From IMG/VR virus record IMGVR_UViG_2974784677_000001: 64,000 bases of DNA; one strand, written 5' to 3'. Every line of letters starts with the position of its first letter. The first letter of the stretch is position 1. Of this stretch, positions 2,752 to 9,062 are shown in pieces. The translations under genes were made by a program, and so were the position numbers. The notes under the pieces are model-generated. The model made no database searches. It was not told the DNA's origin and worked only from the letters and a program-made list of their open reading frames with translations. Origin of the DNA: Thalassavirus gary (lineage: Duplodnaviria > Heunggongvirae > Uroviricota > Caudoviricetes > Demerecviridae).

Positions 2752-4138
2752 AACTTGTGTCCTGTACTGATGTTGCAACCTGTGACTCTGCTTTATTTTG
2801 TTCTGCTTCAACCAAAGTGACCTCTCTAGGGTCGGCTTTAAGGCTTGTCCAATCCATACCAATGTTAAATTGGCAGTTAGGCATTGAACGAACTTTGTCA
2901 GTAGTAAGTTGTATAATTCCAGCTTCATGGTCAGCGTCCAATCTGACAGCAATGTCTACTGGTACTAGAATCGCTTTGGAGAAGCGAGCCTGTCCATTTT
3001 CATTAAGCTGGTACGGTGAGAAGATAGCACAATCATGTTTACGTGCCAGGGATTTGAAACCGCGAGATAGCTCTAGCTGGTAAACCCAATCATATGGATC
3101 TCCCTGTGTATCTAGTCTTGTCTCGTTAATGTAGTCTACAATACCCATTGTTAACTTCTTACCGTATTGCGATCTAAACTTACTTAAACTAACATCAATA
3201 GTAGATAGACGCAAGTTAGAATCATCAATGATAATCATAGGATGAATTTCCTCATGATTACGCATTAGTTCTTGGTCTAGTTCTACAAAGTCATCGGTTA
3301 TAAGATGGTTTTTATTTCGTACAAAATTCTTATAGGCTTCTGCGCCTCCATGAAACATTTTTGCTCTAGTCAGTGCTAGTTTACGTAGCTCATCACCCTC
3401 AAGGCATCCTTGCTTGGTGTGCAGAGCATTTACACCTGCCATAATTGCTAGGTTTCTTAACAGAACCTCACGACCTGACATCTCGATTGAGTAGTAGGGT
3501 GCAATATTACCTGCATTCCACTGTGCTACTTGTAGGTTTGAACAAAATACTGACTTACCTGAACCAGTACCACCACCAAGAAGAATGAACTCCTGACGGG
3601 CAGCTCCACCAAACTCGGAATCCCATTTATTAGAGATACCTGTATAAATCATTTCCATTTCTTTATCATTTGAGTGTTGGAATACTGGGATTTGAGAAGC
3701 AGTTAGGATAGTACCACTATTCTCTACTTTCTCTTCTAGTTTTAGAGGTAATGAGTTTAATCTATCAATTAGATCTTCTGCTGTTAGCATTGTAATATCA
3801 TCCAAAATACTACGGCTAATCAGCGTCAATGTTTCTTGTTGTGCAAATTCGTTTCTTAGAGCTTCGATTGCCATGTCGAAGTCTATGTCTAGATCATCAA
3901 GGTGCTGTAAGGCGGATAACGACATTTGTATGTTGTTATTACGACTAAATTTAATGCTAAGCTCATCCATGCTTGGCAGTTTACCATGGTCTTGGTAGTA
4001 TTTAGCGATTGCCTTATGAATTGTACCGTATGAACTAGAGAAGAAATGAGGCTTGATCTTGTCGAAGCAAGCTAGTGCTAATTCTTTATCAGTACAAGAC
4101 AGAAGTAGTTTAAGTACGACTGCTTGAACGTTTATCAT
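2738..4138 (-). CDS. DnaB-like replicative helicase (RecA-fold)
   Basis: Walker A GGGTGSGKSVF, Walker B-like IIIDDSNL, DnaB C-terminal domain pattern; directly upstream of primase. Confidence 0.65.
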   Translation of the reverse strand: MINVQAVVLKLLLSCTDKELALACFDKIKPHFFSSSYGTIHKAIAKYYQDHGKLPSMDELSIKFSRNNNIQMSLSALQHLDDLDIDFDMAIEALRNEFAQQETLTLISRSILDDITMLTAEDLIDRLNSLPLKLEEKVENSGTILTASQIPVFQHSNDKEMEMIYTGISNKWDSEFGGAARQEFILLGGGTGSGKSVFCSNLQVAQWNAGNIAPYYSIEMSGREVLLRNLAIMAGVNALHTKQGCLEGDELRKLALTRAKMFHGGAEAYKNFVRNKNHLITDDFVELDQELMRNHEEIHPMIIIDDSNLRLSTIDVSLSKFRSQYGKKLTMGIVDYINETRLDTQGDPYDWVYQLELSRGFKSLARKHDCAIFSPYQLNENGQARFSKAILVPVDIAVRLDADHEAGIIQLTTDKVRSMPNCQFNIGMDWTSLKADPREVTLVEAEQNKAESQVATSVQDTSYELD

Positions 4139-4149
4139 TATTGCTCCGA

Positions 4150-4195
4150 TAATAAAAAAGGGAAGCTATGCAGCCTCCCTCTTTTTAACTTAATA
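4150..4195 (-). terminator. rho-independent terminator (minus strand) after 4200-4964 gene
   Basis: minus-strand hairpin GGGAGGCTGCATAGCTTCCC followed by TTTTTTATT. Confidence 0.5.
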
Positions 4196-4199
4196 AGAA

Positions 4200-4964
4200 T
4201 TACTCAGCTTTTTCAGCTTTAGCGTCTAGTTTTGCACGTTGTTTTTCACCGTTATGGTCAGCACAAGCAAGACCACGACGAGTTAGAGCGTTTTTAACAC
4301 CGCGTTCTGATTTACCAACTTTTTCAGCGATTTCCGCAACAGTTAGATCAGCCATAACGTCCATTACAGGTTCTAACCAGTCAGCGCGTACTGTAGCTTT
4401 GCTTTCTGCTTGATGAGGGATTTCGTTGATACGACCTTCACGATGTAGGCTTAGACCTTTACCGCGTACAGATTGTAGTGGACGACCCATAGCTTCTGCG
4501 ATTGCTTCTAGTGAATCACCAGCGTTAGCCATTTCGATGAAAGTAGCTTCTTCTGCTTCAGTGTAAGTACGTTTAGCAGCAACTTTTTCAGCTTTCTTCA
4601 CAGCATCAGTCATTTCTAGAGAAAGAACCTTACCTTGAATTTGTTTAGCACTGAACTTACCAGCTAGGAAAGTAGCAGCTACTTCGTTGTAAGTCATTTC
4701 ACCGTTGTGAGCGTTTAGGAAGTCTACTAGAGCAGCTTCTTCGTCTTCAGCCCATGCTGATTTGTTAGCATCAGATGCTTTTTGAACTTCTAGAGAAAGT
4801 TCACCAACTTTTACAAGTTGACGTAGTTTAGAACCGATACCGCGTGCTGTGTGACCTAGCTCATCAGCAATGTCTTTTAGCAAATCTTGTGATACTAGAG
4901 TAACACCTTCTACACGAGCTTTAAGTACAGATACGTTTTCTTCATTCCAAGCGAATTTAGCCAT
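4200..4964 (-). CDS. hypothetical protein with repeated HTH-like segments
   Basis: 254-aa ORF; repeated AEIAEKVGKSERGV / AIAEAMGRPLQSV motifs; terminator hairpin downstream at 4150-4195. Confidence 0.35.
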   Translation of the reverse strand: MAKFAWNEENVSVLKARVEGVTLVSQDLLKDIADELGHTARGIGSKLRQLVKVGELSLEVQKASDANKSAWAEDEEAALVDFLNAHNGEMTYNEVAATFLAGKFSAKQIQGKVLSLEMTDAVKKAEKVAAKRTYTEAEEATFIEMANAGDSLEAIAEAMGRPLQSVRGKGLSLHREGRINEIPHQAESKATVRADWLEPVMDVMADLTVAEIAEKVGKSERGVKNALTRRGLACADHNGEKQRAKLDAKAEKAE

Positions 4965-4968
4965 TATT

Positions 4969-5745
4969 TTATTCTCCGATAATATTAATTAATTCTTTGA
5001 TAGTTACAATTGGTAGGTCGTTTGCAAGAGCTTTCTTGTAAGACGAAGATCCTTTCTTCGTCTCGTCTTCACAAACGAGATATTTAACAGTTTTGGTAAC
5101 GCTGCCTTTGACAGTGATACCGAATTGTGATAAGTAGTCAGCAGCCTTAGTACGACTAGCGTAGTCGTTAAGCTTGCCTGTGATACATACATCGAATTTG
5201 TGCTCTGTATTTTGTGTCGGTTTTGTGCTTACTTCCGCAAAAGTAATAAAACCGTCTAGAGCTTCGATTGTATCTAAACCCTCTAGTGAATTACACCAGT
5301 CCATGAGGGATTCCGTAGCTTTCGCACCTAGACCTGCATCCGTACAGGCTTTAGCAGTGATTTCCTGAAAGCTATTGATTTTTGTAGCAAGCTTCTCAGC
5401 GGCTACTTTACCGATTAACTTAATACCAAGTGAGCCAAGAACTAAGGCAAATTCACTGGTTTTAGTTTTCTGTATTTCGGTAAAGAGTTTCGAACCTACT
5501 TTGTCTCCAAGAACTGATGTGAGCCGCTGCTCGGTCAGGTTATATAGTCCTGAAATAGTAGTTAGTTCTAGTTTGGAAACAGTTGCAGAGCCAAAACCCT
5601 TAATTTTCATTTTCTTACAGTAGTTCTCAACAAGTTTTGAACTCTGTGCGGGACAAGCAGTTTTATTTCGACAGAATAATTGACCGTTAACGTTTTCAAG
5701 CGTTGAGCCGCATGACGGACATTCTGTTGGAATTACTATTTGCAT
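4969..5745 (-). CDS. NAD-dependent DNA ligase, C-terminal part (Zn-finger + HhH domains) = ligase subunit B
   Basis: CPSCGSTLENVNGQLFCRNKTACPAQ aligns with LigA C4 zinc finger; KGFGSATVSKL HhH motifs follow. Confidence 0.7.
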   Translation of the reverse strand: MQIVIPTECPSCGSTLENVNGQLFCRNKTACPAQSSKLVENYCKKMKIKGFGSATVSKLELTTISGLYNLTEQRLTSVLGDKVGSKLFTEIQKTKTSEFALVLGSLGIKLIGKVAAEKLATKINSFQEITAKACTDAGLGAKATESLMDWCNSLEGLDTIEALDGFITFAEVSTKPTQNTEHKFDVCITGKLNDYASRTKAADYLSQFGITVKGSVTKTVKYLVCEDETKKGSSSYKKALANDLPIVTIKELINIIGE

Positions 5746-5901
5746 TTCATTATCTCCCTCAACTTTATGATAATATTATAGCAAGAAATTTAGCAGTTGA
5801 GCAATTAACTTTTTAATCTTTTTGGTAACTGCTAAATTAATTAATTTGCTTTCCCTCAATTCGTGATAGATAGTATATACCGATTATCCAAAATTGTCAA
5901 A

Positions 5902-6462
5902 TCAGTTTTCTAGCATCTCTTCGAGGATAGCTTTCAACTCTTCGAAATCCGAGGTGAAGCGCAAGTTGAAAGTAGGGATACCGTAACTACGTGATATTTC
6001 CACAGCAGTTCTAGTACCACCCTTGACTACTCGTGCTGGAGTCTCACTAGCAGTATAGATTGTCAAGTCTGCCATAGTCTCAGGACTTAGTGATGTACCT
6101 AATGCTTGGAATACATTTCTAGTATGCATAGCACGGCCACCACGTTTTAGGTGATCCCACGCAGGGTGATGCTCTTCAGCGATACGACGAGCTTCCATTA
6201 ACAGTGCTTCTGGGCATGTATCAATAGATAACATCTGGGCATCGTCTGTTTCGAAGCCATCATTATACCCATTCCAAGGTAGGAAGTGCTGGACAAAGAT
6301 ATAGTTATCCCATTCTTTGTCGCTACCTAGAGCGTTACCAGAAGCGCCAGCAACACCTAGCTTTGCCAGTAACTCACCGATAACCATAATTCGGTGTCTA
6401 TCTAGCTCATCAATATTACGAGAGCCTACAACACAGGCTCTATGATTCTTTAGTTTTACCAT
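5902..6462 (-). CDS. SLOG/DprA-like Rossmann-fold protein (inserted between the ligase halves)
   Basis: VVGSRN...GASGNALGSD resembles the DprA/LOG GxxGxD nucleotide-binding motif; weak. Confidence 0.3.
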   Translation of the reverse strand: MVKLKNHRACVVGSRNIDELDRHRIMVIGELLAKLGVAGASGNALGSDKEWDNYIFVQHFLPWNGYNDGFETDDAQMLSIDTCPEALLMEARRIAEEHHPAWDHLKRGGRAMHTRNVFQALGTSLSPETMADLTIYTASETPARVVKGGTRTAVEISRSYGIPTFNLRFTSDFEELKAILEEMLEN

Positions 6463-6860
6463 GATACGTGTACCTCATTCTTACTTCTTGAAATGGTAGT
6501 TTTAGCTTCGTATCCCAATACTCTTAGTGCTGTTTTTAGTCTACATGCTTGGGAATAATCTTCTTTATATATAATCACACTATTTTTGAACTTAGACTCA
6601 GCTTCAGCAATTTTCTCACGAGCACCAACTTCCTCTACATAGATAGCTGCACTCGCTTTCATACAACGACGAGAGTATGCTGCATCCTTTATAGGTACTG
6701 GTCGCATTGCAGCAGCACCTAGAGTCGGTTCTACACGGGGCATTTTAGAACCAGAGCTTGGTTTAGGTGGGTCTTCTTTGGGGCATAGTGCAGCCGCCCC
6801 CGTAAGTGTTGCCTTTGGTTTTAGACCAGGCAGTCGTATATCCCAAAGTCTAATTCCCAT
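6456..6860 (-). CDS. hypothetical protein (inserted between ligase halves)
   Basis: 134-aa ORF, stop/start coupled with flanking genes; no recognisable nuclease motif. Confidence 0.3.
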   Translation of the reverse strand: MGIRLWDIRLPGLKPKATLTGAAALCPKEDPPKPSSGSKMPRVEPTLGAAAMRPVPIKDAAYSRRCMKASAAIYVEEVGAREKIAEAESKFKNSVIIYKEDYSQACRLKTALRVLGYEAKTTISRSKNEVHVSW

Positions 6861-7828
6861 TAGAAAGCCTCCACAATCTTAGGAATGATACCACCTGCAC
6901 GAATAATACGAACTTCTTGACCGATATGCGTGATACCCATCGCTTTCATATATTCTACATTATTTAAAGTAACACGAGTTACCTTGGCATCTTCAAGAAC
7001 TACTTCTTTAACAATAGCAACCGGAGTTACTTTACCGGAAGCGCCTACCCCCCAGATAACGTTTTCGATGGTAGTGATCTCACCTTCATCGTCTTCCTTA
7101 ACAGCGAATGCGCCTTTAGGGTACTTAGAAGTGAAACCCGCTGCGAAGTAAGCACGGTTACGTTTTAGACGGTATACTAGACCATCAGTCATGATTAGAC
7201 CATGCTCTACAGCTTTCTTAACGTTGTCGCTAAGAATAGTATGGAATCCTAGATTCTCTAGTTCTTTCATATCGTTATCGTACATAGCGCCTAGGCAACC
7301 ATCAGCACAAGTCTGTACGTTGTAAGCGATGAAACGCAAGCCGCCTTCCATGAGACGAGTCATGAACTCCTGACCATTATCAAGGTTCATAGCACCTGAC
7401 GCATAGTTACGAGCATTTTCAATATCTTTAGTAGTTACTACTTCACCAGTTACCTGCATAATCGGAGCGTAGTAGTCTACATTTGCAGGTACTAGATGCT
7501 CTAGGTTCTGTGTAATATCACGACCTTTAACACCGTCACCACGAGTCAAACATTGAACCAGCTTACCATTAATATATAGACAATCAACAGCACAGCCATC
7601 AAGTTTTGGTGACTCGATGTACGGTTCTAGATTAGGTAGTTCGTCACCACGACAAGGGTATTTCTTCTCTAGCGACCACATACGAAACATGTGAGCTTCC
7701 TCACCCTTGTGACCAATAGTTACTTCTGCATCTGGGAAGCGACGAATAAGAGCATCATACTCTTCGTCAGAGATTAGTGGTTCACCATCGTAGTACGCAC
7801 GCTGAAGTTCTGCAATAAATTGTTTCAT
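6860..7828 (-). CDS. NAD-dependent DNA ligase, N-terminal part (Ia + adenylation + OB domains) = ligase subunit A
   Basis: N-terminal Ia motif YYDGEPLISDEEYDAL, adenylation lysine motif KLDG, ends after OB fold (EVRIIRAGGIIPKIV). Confidence 0.8.
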   Translation of the reverse strand: MKQFIAELQRAYYDGEPLISDEEYDALIRRFPDAEVTIGHKGEEAHMFRMWSLEKKYPCRGDELPNLEPYIESPKLDGCAVDCLYINGKLVQCLTRGDGVKGRDITQNLEHLVPANVDYYAPIMQVTGEVVTTKDIENARNYASGAMNLDNGQEFMTRLMEGGLRFIAYNVQTCADGCLGAMYDNDMKELENLGFHTILSDNVKKAVEHGLIMTDGLVYRLKRNRAYFAAGFTSKYPKGAFAVKEDDEGEITTIENVIWGVGASGKVTPVAIVKEVVLEDAKVTRVTLNNVEYMKAMGITHIGQEVRIIRAGGIIPKIVEAF

Positions 7829-7861
7829 TCAAATCTCCTTTAATTTATAAACATATTATAC

Positions 7862-8128
7862 TTACATTCTACCTGAAACGCAAGTTGAGATTTGCGGAAT
7901 TGAGACCTGTAAATGCTTCTCAATTAAATCCGCAGATTCGTTTGCAGAAAATTGGTGACAGGCGCAGATAAAAACTCGAACCTGGGCACAGAACGTTTCA
8001 TAGTTATCACCCTGATTAAGCATCAAGATATGAGACTTACCCTTAGCTAAGTCATCAGCAGCTGCCTTACAACGACGATGGAATGACTGCTGTAAGTCTT
8101 TTTGTGATAGTGGTTTGCCATATTTCAT
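7862..8128 (-). CDS. hypothetical protein
   Basis: 88-aa ORF in co-directional gene string. Confidence 0.3.
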   Translation of the reverse strand: MKYGKPLSQKDLQQSFHRRCKAAADDLAKGKSHILMLNQGDNYETFCAQVRVFICACHQFSANESADLIEKHLQVSIPQISTCVSGRM

Positions 8129-8493
8129 TTTAGTTCCTCTACTTTGGTTGCTAGTGGGTCTGCATGTTTAAGTACTAACCCATAAGCCATTGGGGCTAGG
8201 CTTCTTACTACAGTATCTTTGTTTTCATCTACGTAGCCATCTAGCATACGACAGGATGGTGCTACATACATTTCTTTGGCTTGTTTTTCAAACTGAGGCA
8301 GGATTGTTCCAGTTATACGTAGTTTATTGCCGTCTACTTTAGCTGTATGAACTGTACCAACTGGTGGCTTGGAGCTATCGTAGCTAGCAAAGATTCTACC
8401 CTTAATACCCTCGAACTGTTTTAAAGCTTCGGGTGAGAATTTCAGCCCATTTTTATCCACTTCAGTAGAGGACGCAATACATGAAAAGTACAT
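8125..8493 (-). CDS. hypothetical protein
   Basis: 122-aa ORF, overlapping start/stop with neighbours. Confidence 0.35.
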   Translation of the reverse strand: MYFSCIASSTEVDKNGLKFSPEALKQFEGIKGRIFASYDSSKPPVGTVHTAKVDGNKLRITGTILPQFEKQAKEMYVAPSCRMLDGYVDENKDTVVRSLAPMAYGLVLKHADPLATKVEELK

Positions 8494-8726
8494 TAGTTTA
8501 CCTCTATAATTACATTGTCAAAACGAATAGTCGCCATCTCAAATGGGATACATTCCACTTGTAGTTCATCATCAATAATAATAAAGTGACCTTTATTATC
8601 TTTTACGTAACATTCTACGTATTTGTCTTTTGTATTTAGGTTGGCTACACCAAAAACTTCAACCCCATCTAGGTATATTTTTACGCCACCTGTAGTAGCC
8701 CCAATTGTACTTGAATTAATTAACAT
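8493..8726 (-). CDS. hypothetical protein
   Basis: 77-aa ORF, coupled ATGA junction. Confidence 0.3.
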   Translation of the reverse strand: MLINSSTIGATTGGVKIYLDGVEVFGVANLNTKDKYVECYVKDNKGHFIIIDDELQVECIPFEMATIRFDNVIIEVN

Positions 8727-8756
8727 TTATATTCCTTATATATGAGAAAAGCCGAA

Positions 8757-9062
8757 TCATTTACGATTCGGCTCATAGTCTATGTGCTTTAGCACTTCAT
8801 GTAACACTTCACCCTTACTTAATATCTTAGTCAATGCTCCGAATAACGCACCTGTAGTATTTAAGTTGTAAGGGAAAGTAAATCCTTGTCTAGTTGGCAT
8901 CCATGAATCATCTATATCTATGACCCACTTTCTCATGCCTAGATACAGATTGCCTCGAAACTCTGAGACTGTTAGACGAATCTGAGTGTCTTTCTCAAAA
9001 CTCTCGTAGATTATTTCGTCTAACAGATCATCATGCCCGTTGTAATTATCGGTTACGTCCAT
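8757..9062 (-). CDS. hypothetical protein
   Basis: 101-aa ORF. Confidence 0.3.
   Translation of the reverse strand: MDVTDNYNGHDDLLDEIIYESFEKDTQIRLTVSEFRGNLYLGMRKWVIDIDDSWMPTRQGFTFPYNLNTTGALFGALTKILSKGEVLHEVLKHIDYEPNRK

What the first reader, a model, noticed from the sequence alone, without database searches (positions are those of the whole stretch)
4969..7828. NAD-dependent DNA ligase split into two genes at the OB/Zn-finger boundary, with two unrelated ORFs inserted
ORF 6860-7828 encodes the Ia, adenylation (KLDG) and OB domains. ORF 4969-5745 starts exactly at the LigA zinc finger (CPSCGS..C..C) and continues with the HhH domain. Between them lie a 134-aa ORF of unknown function and a 186-aa SLOG/DprA-like Rossmann protein. 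Neither shows HNH, GIY-YIG or LAGLIDADG motifs, so this does not look like a classical homing-endonuclease split. Two-subunit NAD-ligases are annotated in T5-like phages, but the identity of the inserted genes and how the halves assemble are open. A DprA/SLOG-like nucleotide-binding protein next to an NAD-using enzyme is intriguing.
Basis: partly seen in the sequence, partly recalled or inferred. Interest (0 to 1): 0.6.

Follow-up and report, generated by a model that had tools for sequence, protein, structure and literature searches.

The report
Two-gene phage DNA ligase with cargo
This is the already annotated two-subunit NAD-dependent DNA ligase of a T5-like Vibrio phage; the gap between its two genes is a variable slot that here carries two accessory genes which the ligase probably does not need.

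Summary
The window is Vibrio phage Gary (Thalassavirus, Demerecviridae). The four ORFs are its annotated gp60, gp59, gp58 and gp57.

- **The split is real and old.** The ligase is cut at the same OB/zinc-finger linker in all 86 related loci I examined. The distance between the two genes ranges from 50 to 1374 nt, so this is an old gene fission and not a sequencing error.
- **A homologous two-chain ligase is already solved.** PDB 9HU3/9I5I match Providencia phage PR1 subunits A and B.
- **The gap content varies.** It is empty in most T5-like coliphages and holds a GIY-YIG endonuclease in Salmonella phage SP3. Proteus phage Stubb carries a NADAR gene there, other Vibrio phages carry small ORFs, and Thalassavirus and V. 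cholerae phage phi 3 carry a DprA-like/SLOG gene.
- **A promoter module sits before the C-half.** Promoter-like sequences lie directly upstream of the C-half gene in most lineages. Cargo always sits upstream of them and, in Thalassavirus, is translationally coupled to the N-half.
- **gp58** belongs to a large phage SLOG family whose members are often fused to NADAR or DUF4326. It is next to an NAD ligase only in some Demerecviridae (0 of 77 other loci).
- **gp59** is a genus-restricted ORFan.

Interest is low to moderate.

The parts
6860..7828 (-). [quoted passage not shown]
   Evidence: Pfam adenylation and OB domains and PHROG 3359. Matches PDB 9HU3 chain A at E 2e-99. A profile of five phage N-halves aligns over residues 11-389 of Thermus LigA and keeps KxDG, TRGDG, GEV, DGxV(R) and the motif V lysine. 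dN/dS 0.03-0.17.
6456..6860 (-). gp59, a 134-aa ORFan. Its ATG overlaps the ligN stop codon (TAATG).
   Evidence: No Pfam or PHROG family. Only 6 homologue clusters, the named ones from Thalassavirus phages. The N-terminus is variable and predicted disordered; the conserved C-terminal domain of about 80 aa has pLDDT about 80. No significant PDB fold match, best E 0.59. dN/dS 0.11-0.26. Junction overlap shown.
5902..6462 (-). gp58, a 186-aa single-domain DprA-like/SLOG Rossmannoid protein. It overlaps the gp59 stop by 7 nt.
   Evidence: PHROG 768, E 5e-49. AlphaFold model with pLDDT 96.5. Nearest solved folds are DprA Rossmann domains (E 5e-5, TM about 0.5), then ShosA, MoCo carrier, LOG and the ThsA SLOG domain. 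The family has 5275 cluster representatives, and multi-domain members are fused to NADAR, DUF4326 and other SLOG domains. dN/dS 0.04-0.10.
5872..5900 (-). Promoter-like site P1 (TTGACA-17-TATACT). It starts 2 nt after the gp58 stop codon.
   Evidence: 11 of 12 consensus match, sequence read. The same element lies 119-132 nt upstream of the C-half ATG in every cultured Demerecviridae lineage sampled. Function is inferred, not shown.
5775..5804 (-). Promoter-like site P2 (TTGCTC-18-TATAAT). Its -10 box ends 29 nt before the ligC ATG, and it is followed by the Shine-Dalgarno sequence GAGGGAG (5754-5760).
   Evidence: Sequence read. A TTGC[T/C]N-17/18-TATAAT element lies 25-33 nt before the ligC ATG in most other cultured lineages (9 nt in Pectobacterium phage My1). 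Function is inferred.
4969..5745 (-). ligC (Gary gp57, 'NAD-dependent DNA ligase subunit B'): Zn finger + HhH + BRCT, 258 aa
   Evidence: PHROG 3498, E 1.5e-109, and BRCT Pfam hit. Matches PDB 9HU3 chain B at E 1e-56 and E. coli LigA residues 401-667. Four Cys at residues 9, 12, 25 and 31.
4200..4964 (-). D5-like DNA-binding regulator (gp56). It starts 4 nt after ligC and is probably in the same transcription unit (context only).
   Evidence: PHROG 323, E 1e-61. The order ligC then D5 is kept in all five annotated comparison phages. Co-transcription is inferred.

Best explanation
An ancestor of the T5-like phages (Demerecviridae and uncultured relatives) broke its LigA-type ligase gene in the short linker between the OB fold and the zinc finger.

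**The two subunits**
- The N-terminal product (Ia, adenylation and OB domains) would carry the NAD+-dependent self-adenylation and nick-sealing chemistry.
- The C-terminal product (Zn, HhH, BRCT) would supply DNA binding and clamp closure.
- The two would work as a non-covalent two-subunit enzyme. That they form one complex is inferred from the deposited two-chain structure of a homologue.

**The spacer**
- The space between the genes has become a transcription-unit boundary. Promoter-like modules sit directly before the C-half gene, which heads a ligC-D5 unit leading into the helicase and primase genes.
- DNA between the N-half stop codon and those promoters is a permissive slot where different lineages have gained and lost cargo.

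**The cargo in Gary**
- gp59 is a genus-restricted ORFan.
- gp58 is a member of a large phage SLOG/DprA-like family. Its most likely role is binding or processing a nucleotide or ADP-ribose-derived molecule as a counter-defence or accessory function.
- Both are translationally coupled to the N-half, so they are probably expressed with it.
- Neither is needed to make the ligase work.
For: **Shown**
- The split lies at the same position in 86 of 86 loci, with spacers of 50-1374 nt, and both halves are always adjacent and co-oriented.
- Both halves are 45-54% identical across five genera, with catalytic and Zn motifs invariant.
- Purifying selection acts on all four genes.
- PDB 9HU3/9I5I hold both chains of the Providencia phage PR1 enzyme.
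- There are no extra tails. The break maps to E. coli LigA residues of about 390-401.
- Most T5-like phages have an empty 199-202-nt spacer, so the cargo is dispensable for the ligase.
- Cargo differs by lineage: GIY-YIG in Salmonella phage SP3 (at most 3 of 441 records), NADAR in Proteus phage Stubb but not in its relatives, and SLOG in Thalassavirus and phage phi 3.
- At least four length alleles occur within Thalassavirus, and all keep the TAATG junction.
- Promoter-like sites scoring at least 10 of 12 occur in 32 of 45 distinct spacers, against 2.5 expected (maximum 6) in shuffles. They are always next to ligC.
- The gp58 family is fused to NADAR (4 of 10) and DUF4326 (3 of 10) in the multi-domain members sampled. 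This matches the viral SLOG class described in PMC9503650.

**Inferred**
- Heterodimer formation in Gary itself.
- Promoter activity.
- The biochemical role of gp58.
Against: - No experiment exists on the Gary proteins.
- I could not read the 9HU3 coordinates or find a paper, so the nature of the interface is unknown to me.
- The SLOG gene touches ligN in four Demerecviridae lineages at two different positions. That is more than a purely random slot would predict.
- The nearest solved folds to gp58 are DprA ssDNA-binding domains, not LOG or ThsA. A DNA-transaction role next to replication genes therefore remains possible.
- Promoter calls are consensus matches only.
Confidence: 0.8

Rival explanations
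1. Functional coupling. gp58 (SLOG), and possibly gp59, are partners of the ligase. They might sense or handle NAD+, NMN or ADP-ribose derivatives to keep an NAD+-dependent ligase working when host defences deplete NAD+. Alternatively they might chaperone assembly of the two halves.
For: - The SLOG gene lies between the halves in Thalassavirus and V. cholerae phage phi 3. It lies immediately upstream of ligN, with overlapping stop and start codons, in Pectobacterium phage My1 and in Proteus phages.
- In Proteus phage Stubb, the SLOG and NADAR genes flank ligN.
- Family members are fused to NADAR and DUF4326.
- gp59 and gp58 are translationally coupled to ligN.
Against: - 0 of 77 SLOG loci outside the Thalassavirus group have an NAD ligase within 8 kb.
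- In Vibrio phages L038/L039 the SLOG gene is about 47 kb from the ligase.
- Most T5-like phages with the same split ligase have no SLOG gene within 4-6 kb, and the PR1 enzyme was deposited as two chains only.
- gp59 is confined to one genus.
Confidence: 0.1
2. Mobile-element origin. The fission was created by a free-standing homing endonuclease that landed in the linker, as in the 'genes-in-pieces' cases. Today's cargo is what remains after the endonuclease was lost or replaced.
For: - A GIY-YIG ORF occupies the equivalent gap in Salmonella phage SP3, with the sporadic distribution typical of homing endonuclease genes (at most 3 of 441 records).
- Synonymous divergence is mosaic around the gap. 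For Gary against Chester, gp59 has dS 0.87 while its neighbours have 0.05-0.08.
- There is a precedent in phage Aeh1, where nrdA is split by mobE (PMC3045599).
Against: - No nuclease domain is present in the Gary gap.
- The most divergent relatives have only a 50-52-nt spacer containing a TATAAT box and no ORF.
- The halves carry no unique interaction tails, unlike NrdA-a and NrdA-b.
- The SP3 endonuclease sits in an already split gene, so it shows that the site can be targeted, not how the split arose.
Confidence: 0.15
3. The two ORFs are rejoined into one chain by a group I intron, an intein or translational bypass, or the split is a sequencing artefact.
For: None beyond the general precedent of introns and inteins in phage replication genes.
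Against: - No Rfam intron or other RNA family was found in 4000-9000 at E<=1, apart from one chance-level sRNA hit.
- There are no surplus residues at the break that could form split-intein halves.
- The gap holds two genes under purifying selection.
- The same stop and start arrangement occurs in 86 loci from independent assemblies.
- The PDB entry contains two separate chains.
Confidence: 0.01

Closest known systems
Two-subunit NAD+-dependent DNA ligase of T5-like phages (T5 ligA/ligB; Providencia phage PR1 PR1_116/PR1_117, PDB 9HU3 and 9I5I)
   Same: - Same break point between OB and Zn finger.
- Same gene order, and the same downstream D5-like gene.
- The Gary N-half is 51% and the C-half 46% identical to PR1, and they match the PDB chains at E 2e-99 and 1e-56.
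- The same promoter-like module lies before the C-half.
   Different: PR1 and T5 have a 192-202-nt non-coding spacer. Gary has 1114 nt carrying two extra genes upstream of the promoters.
Bacterial LigA (E. coli 2OWO, Thermus 1V9P/1DGS)
   Same: All domains are present in the canonical order: Ia, NTase, OB, Zn, HhH, BRCT. The catalytic lysine motif and the four zinc cysteines are conserved.
   Different: There are two polypeptides instead of one. The N-terminal part is about 60 aa shorter than in Thermus LigA (profile positions 2-321 against residues 11-389). At the motif IV position where I recall a lysine in bacterial LigA, the aligned Thermus and E. coli sequences show DGVV[V/I]K and the phage clade has an invariant arginine.
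'Genes-in-pieces': phage Aeh1 nrdA split by the mobE homing endonuclease (PMC3045599). From my own knowledge, also T4 topoisomerase genes 39 and 60.
   Same: An essential replication enzyme is encoded as two adjacent genes with foreign DNA between them, and function is restored by non-covalent assembly.
   Different: The Gary gap has no endonuclease. The ligase halves have no novel tails. The split is fixed across a whole phage family rather than sporadic.
Viral SLOG / DprA-like family (PHROG 768; SLOG class of Iyer et al. 2022, PMC9503650)
   Same: gp58 is a standalone Rossmannoid domain of about 180 aa with GSR, SGxAxGxD and GGT motifs. Relatives are fused to NADAR and DUF4326, as that paper describes for phage SLOG domains.
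   Different: No function has been tested for this family as far as I could find. Its position inside a split ligase is specific to a few Vibrio phage lineages.

Membership tests
NAD+-dependent DNA ligase (LigA) | Adenylation domain with the KxDG lysine and NTase motifs III, IV and V | tested here: met
   Pfam PF01653, 69.7 bits against a cutoff of 27. K75 lies in KLDG. TRGDG, GEV, DGxVxR and the motif V lysine are invariant in 5 genera and align to Thermus LigA.
NAD+-dependent DNA ligase (LigA) | N-terminal Ia domain that confers NAD+ specificity | tested here: met
   Residues 5-31 (YYxGxPxISDEEYDxL) are invariant across the clade and align to the Ia region of Thermus LigA. NAD+ use itself was not tested.
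NAD+-dependent DNA ligase (LigA) | OB fold, four-cysteine zinc finger, HhH and BRCT domains | tested here: met
   OB domain PF03120, 62.4 bits. Cys 9, 12, 25 and 31 are invariant. The C-half aligns to 2OWO residues 401-667. BRCT hit at E 1.6e-7. The Pfam HhH hit is below threshold.
NAD+-dependent DNA ligase (LigA) | All domains on a single polypeptide | tested here: not met
   A stop codon follows the OB fold, and 1114 nt with two genes come before the Zn finger ORF.
NAD+-dependent DNA ligase (LigA) | Nick sealing that depends on NAD+ | not testable with these tools
   Needs a biochemical assay.
Two-subunit ligase of T5-like phages (9HU3 type) | Break between OB and Zn finger, with the halves adjacent and co-oriented | tested here: met
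   Same break in 86 of 86 loci, including Gary.
Two-subunit ligase of T5-like phages (9HU3 type) | Sequence homology of each half to the solved chains A and B | tested here: met
   E 2e-99 for chain A and E 1.1e-56 for chain B. The chains match PR1_116 and PR1_117 over the aligned stretches.
Two-subunit ligase of T5-like phages (9HU3 type) | Physical heterodimer | not testable with these tools
   The structure tool takes one chain only, and the PDB coordinates could not be read.
DprA (DNA recombination mediator) | Match to the DprA Rossmann domain model above the curated cutoff | tested here: not met
   PF02481 scores 15.9 bits against a cutoff of 29.6, and the match covers only residues 6-50. 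Fold similarity to HpDprA is real but distant (E 5e-5, TM about 0.5, 15% identity).
DprA (DNA recombination mediator) | Accessory SAM and C-terminal winged-helix-type domains; ssDNA binding and RecA loading | tested here: not met
   gp58 is a single 186-aa domain with no extra domains. Binding activities were not testable.
SLOG superfamily, viral SLOG class (PHROG 768) | Profile match and conserved glycine-rich nucleotide-binding loops | tested here: met
   PHROG 768, E 5.3e-49 over the full length. The G13-S-R, S41-G-x-A-x-G-x-D and G148-G-T motifs are invariant.
SLOG superfamily, viral SLOG class (PHROG 768) | Structural similarity to characterised SLOG or LOG domains | tested here: inconclusive
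   LOG, the ThsA SLOG domain and the MoCo carrier appear only at E 0.006-0.08 with TM 0.37-0.52.
SLOG superfamily, viral SLOG class (PHROG 768) | Association with ADP-ribose-processing domains (NADAR, Macro, DUF4326) | tested here: met
   Of 10 multi-domain family members, 4 carry NADAR and 3 carry DUF4326. A NADAR gene lies beside the SLOG-ligN pair in Proteus phage Stubb.
Homing-endonuclease 'genes-in-pieces' | Endonuclease ORF between the two halves | tested here: not met
   No HNH, GIY-YIG or LAGLIDADG hit for gp58 or gp59. It is met only in Salmonella phage SP3.
Group I intron or intein interruption | Intron RNA fold, or intein blocks flanking the break | tested here: not met
   The Rfam scan of 4000-9000 found no intron. 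There are no extra residues at the break.

The most novel reading that the evidence does not exclude
The OB/Zn linker of the Demerecviridae ligase may be more than a tolerated break. It could be a dedicated expression slot that ties NAD+/ADP-ribose-network counter-defence genes (SLOG here, NADAR in Proteus phage Stubb) to the N-half of an NAD+-consuming enzyme. In that reading gp58 senses or processes an NAD-derived molecule and so protects or tunes ligase activity during infection of hosts with NAD-depleting or ADP-ribosylating defences.
Probability: 0.1. Interest if true: 0.6.

Novelty: already known. Interest (0 to 1): 0.25.

Why it matters
The split ligase itself is a textbook-level annotation for T5-like phages and now has a deposited structure, so this locus adds no new principle.

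The comparative picture has modest value in three ways:
- It shows that an essential enzyme can tolerate a permanent break at a domain linker across a whole phage family.
- It shows that the break doubles as an operon boundary with conserved promoter-like sequences.
- It shows that the DNA just upstream of those promoters is a hotspot where accessory and selfish genes (SLOG, NADAR, GIY-YIG, ORFans) come and go.

This makes the slot a convenient place to look for new counter-defence genes in Demerecviridae. It may also be a safe site for engineering cargo into these phages.

Tried and rejected
- **Intron, sRNA or bypass:** the Rfam scan of 4000-9000 at E<=1 gave only one chance-level hit.
- **Intein:** rejected because there are no surplus residues at the break.
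- **Sequencing frameshift:** rejected by 86 independent loci and by purifying selection.
- **Homing endonuclease in Gary:** no nuclease domain found.
- **Function of gp59:** only 6 homologue clusters. The model is moderate (mean pLDDT 65; about 80 in the C-terminal domain). The PDB fold search had a best E of 0.59, with ribosomal protein S8-like chance hits. It remains unknown.
- **Paper for 9HU3/9I5I:** four full-text searches found none. I also did not obtain the entry's release date.
- **General SLOG-ligase linkage:** 0 of 77 other loci.
- **NADAR in the ligase gap of T5-like Bas32**, whose NADAR counters DarTG1 (PMC11825919): not there, the gap is empty.
- **First structure job for gp59:** It was repeated with 7 rows.
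Full report
**Identity of the window.** Bases 4200-8500 are 100% identical to Vibrio phage Gary (NC_055913; Thalassavirus, Ermolyevavirinae, Demerecviridae). 43 related Vibrio phage records cover at least 80% of this stretch. The four ORFs in the finding are Gary gp60 (ligase subunit A), gp59 (hypothetical), gp58 ('DprA-like DNA recombination-mediator protein' in RefSeq) and gp57 (ligase subunit B). The arrangement is therefore already annotated.

**Check of the observation.** All four ORFs lie on the minus strand at the stated coordinates.
- The 322-aa product matches the Pfam NAD-ligase adenylation and OB domains and PHROG 3359.
- The 258-aa product begins MQIVIPTECPSCGS, has four cysteines at positions 9, 12, 25 and 31, has a BRCT domain, and matches PHROG 3498.
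- Against E. coli LigA (2OWO), the N-half ends at about residue 389 and the C-half starts at residue 401. The break is therefore in the short OB/Zn linker, and no residues are added or lost.
- A profile of five phage N-halves aligns across residues 11-389 of Thermus LigA. It keeps the Ia motif, KxDG, TRGDG, GEV, DGxV and the motif V lysine. The phage N-half is about 60 aa shorter than the Thermus region.

**Is the split real, and how old is it?** I collected 5 annotated Demerecviridae loci and 80 IMG/VR loci, which makes 86 with the Gary record itself.
- In every one of the 86 loci the N-half ORF ends just after the OB fold, and a separate ORF starts a few residues before the first zinc cysteine.
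- The non-coding or cargo-bearing distance between them is 50-52 nt in 31 environmental contigs that are 42-44% identical. It is 76-118 nt in 12 others.
- It is 170-202 nt in My1, Providencia, Klebsiella and T5-like coliphages and Salmonella phages, and up to 1374 nt in Vibrio phage Chester.
- A tblastn search found 1155 phage records with a relative of the N-half. Relatives outside the T5-like group drop to 30% identity or less.
- Both halves are 45-54% identical between genera.
- The fission is therefore ancestral to the clade and is maintained by selection. T5 ligA and ligB are cited as subunits A and B in PMC3632103.

**Assembly.** PDB entries 9HU3 and 9I5I contain a 339-aa 'DNA ligase (NAD(+))' chain and a 248-aa 'DNA ligase subunit B' chain. 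These match the Gary halves at E 2e-99 and 1.1e-56. Over the aligned stretches their sequences match Providencia phage vB_PreS_PR1 PR1_116 and PR1_117. A two-chain homologue has therefore been solved. I could not read the coordinates or find the paper. The mechanism I give is inference from LigA biology: catalysis in the Ia-NTase-OB subunit, DNA clamping by the Zn-HhH-BRCT subunit, and non-covalent association. Unlike the Aeh1 NrdA split (PMC3045599), the halves carry no novel tails.

**What lies in the gap across relatives.**
- Most T5-like coliphages and Salmonella phages have a 202-nt spacer with no convincing ORF.
- Salmonella phage SP3 has a 218-aa GIY-YIG ORF there (Pfam E 1e-5). Only 3 of 441 related records cover at least 80% of the SP3 query that includes this insert.
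- Proteus phage Stubb has a 218-aa NADAR ORF (E 1.8e-31). The matches in the other Proteus phages cover only 76-81% of that region, in two or three pieces.
- Vibrio phages D411, VCPH and L038/L039 have unrelated small ORFs.
- V. cholerae phage phi 3, JSF10 and JSF12 have a 73-aa ORF plus a 230-aa SLOG protein.
- Within Thalassavirus there are at least four length alleles: Cody-type with a 112-aa gp59, Gary-type with 134 aa, and Thalassa-type and Chester-type with an extra 88-aa ORF (PHROG 7775). L007/L008 carry different small ORFs altogether.
- Synonymous divergence is mosaic. For Gary against Chester, dS is 0.87 in gp59 but 0.05-0.08 in the flanking genes.

**A conserved promoter module.** The 156 nt between gp58 and ligC hold TTGACA-17-TATACT (5900-5872) and TTGCTC-18-TATAAT (5804-5775), followed by a GAGGGAG Shine-Dalgarno sequence.
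- The same pair is found in every cultured lineage sampled, with -10 ends at 119-132 nt (97 nt in My1) and mostly 25-33 nt (9 nt in My1) before the ligC ATG.
- The 76-118-nt environmental spacers hold a single promoter, fully consensus in the 76-81-nt spacers and 10-11 of 12 in the longer ones.
- The 50-52-nt spacers still contain TATAAT.
- 32 of 45 distinct spacers have a match of at least 10 of 12, against 2.5 (maximum 6) in shuffles.
- The PR1 depositors also annotated a terminator and a promoter there.
- Cargo is always upstream of this module. In all Thalassavirus alleles the first cargo ATG overlaps the ligN stop codon (TAATG), and gp58 overlaps gp59 by 7 nt.
- I infer that the break is an operon boundary, that the cargo rides on the ligN transcript, and that ligC heads the next unit with the D5-like regulator. 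This is not shown experimentally.

**gp58.**
- The AlphaFold model is confident (pLDDT 96.5).
- The nearest solved folds are DprA Rossmann domains (E 5e-5, TM about 0.5, 15% identity). These are followed by ShosA, MoCo carrier proteins, LOG and the ThsA SLOG domain.
- Many phage proteins match at TM about 0.8.
- The family is large, with 5275 cluster representatives at E<=0.001.
- Of 10 multi-domain members sampled, 4 carry NADAR and 3 carry DUF4326, and the two longest (both NADAR-bearing) also carry extra SLOG domains. This is the pattern Iyer et al. describe for viral SLOG domains, which they predict act on ADP-ribose-derived signals (PMC9503650).
- Phage NADARs have been shown to reverse DarT1 DNA ADP-ribosylation (PMC11825919).
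- The Pfam DprA match is below threshold, and gp58 lacks DprA's accessory domains. 'DprA' is therefore a fold resemblance, not membership.

**Is gp58 linked to the ligase?**
- For: the gene abuts ligN in four Demerecviridae lineages. It is in the gap in Thalassavirus and phi 3, and immediately upstream with overlapping codons in Pectobacterium phage My1 and in Proteus phages.
- Against: in Vibrio phages L038/L039 it is about 47 kb away.
- Against: it is absent within 4-6 kb in T5-like, Klebsiella and Providencia phages.
- Against: none of 77 other family loci in IMG/VR has an NAD ligase within 8 kb.
- I therefore treat the adjacency as local synteny plus hotspot behaviour, and give a functional link a residual probability of about 10%.

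**gp59.** It has only six homologue clusters. It has a variable, disordered N-terminus and a conserved α-α-β-α-β-β domain of about 80 aa with no significant fold match. dN/dS of 0.11-0.26 shows that it is a real gene. Its function is unknown.

**Verdict.** The core phenomenon is already known and structurally characterised in a homologue. The added value is the family-wide view: a fixed gene fission, a conserved promoter module at the break, and a variable cargo slot. Interest is low to moderate.

Noticed in passing
window 5775-5900 (-); also L003, L004, L009, L010, L015, L016 and others: A tandem pair of promoter-like sites directly upstream of the ligase C-half gene is conserved from E. coli T5-like phages to Vibrio Thalassavirus. 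Both sites keep nearly fixed distances to the ATG. Each is followed by a similar ATTATCA...GAGGGA stretch, as if a promoter-RBS cassette had been duplicated. In T5-like and PR1 spacers, a tiny ORF of 8-9 codons follows the first site.
   Followed up: partly
window 6680-6760 (gp59 residues ~36-60); L007 6959-7180: gp59 and the otherwise unrelated 73-aa ORF that follows ligN in L007/L008 share only a short motif, P[RK]..P..GAAAM.P...P..D. It lies in a predicted disordered region. It could be a short linear interaction motif kept at this position.
   Followed up: no
L015 5357-8541 (Proteus phage Stubb): The gene order is SLOG, ligN, NADAR, ligC. The NADAR gene appears to be missing from the other Proteus phages (their matches cover 76-81% of the region, in pieces). 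This is a presence/absence polymorphism of a likely anti-DarT-type gene inside the ligase gap.
   Followed up: partly
L019 6940-7760 (Salmonella phage SP3): A GIY-YIG homing-endonuclease-like ORF occupies the ligase gap. Only 3 of 441 related T5-like records cover at least 80% of the query that includes it.
   Followed up: partly
L009 ~6960-7180 (Vibrio phage phi 3): The 73-aa gap ORF belongs to PHROG 13916, which is labelled 'DNA ligase'. It has no ligase domain, so the label looks like an annotation carried over from its neighbours.
   Followed up: no
window 5902-7828 compared with L002, L007, L008: Synonymous divergence is strongly mosaic along the locus. For Gary against L007, dS is 1.5 in gp58, 0.66 in ligN and 0.25 in ligC. 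This points to recombination breakpoints at or near the ligase gap.
   Followed up: partly
window 7191-7205 (ligN motif IV, residue R220): At the motif IV position where, from memory, bacterial LigA has an essential lysine, the aligned Thermus and E. coli sequences read DGVV[V/I]K, and all five phage genera have an invariant arginine (DGxVxR).
   Followed up: no
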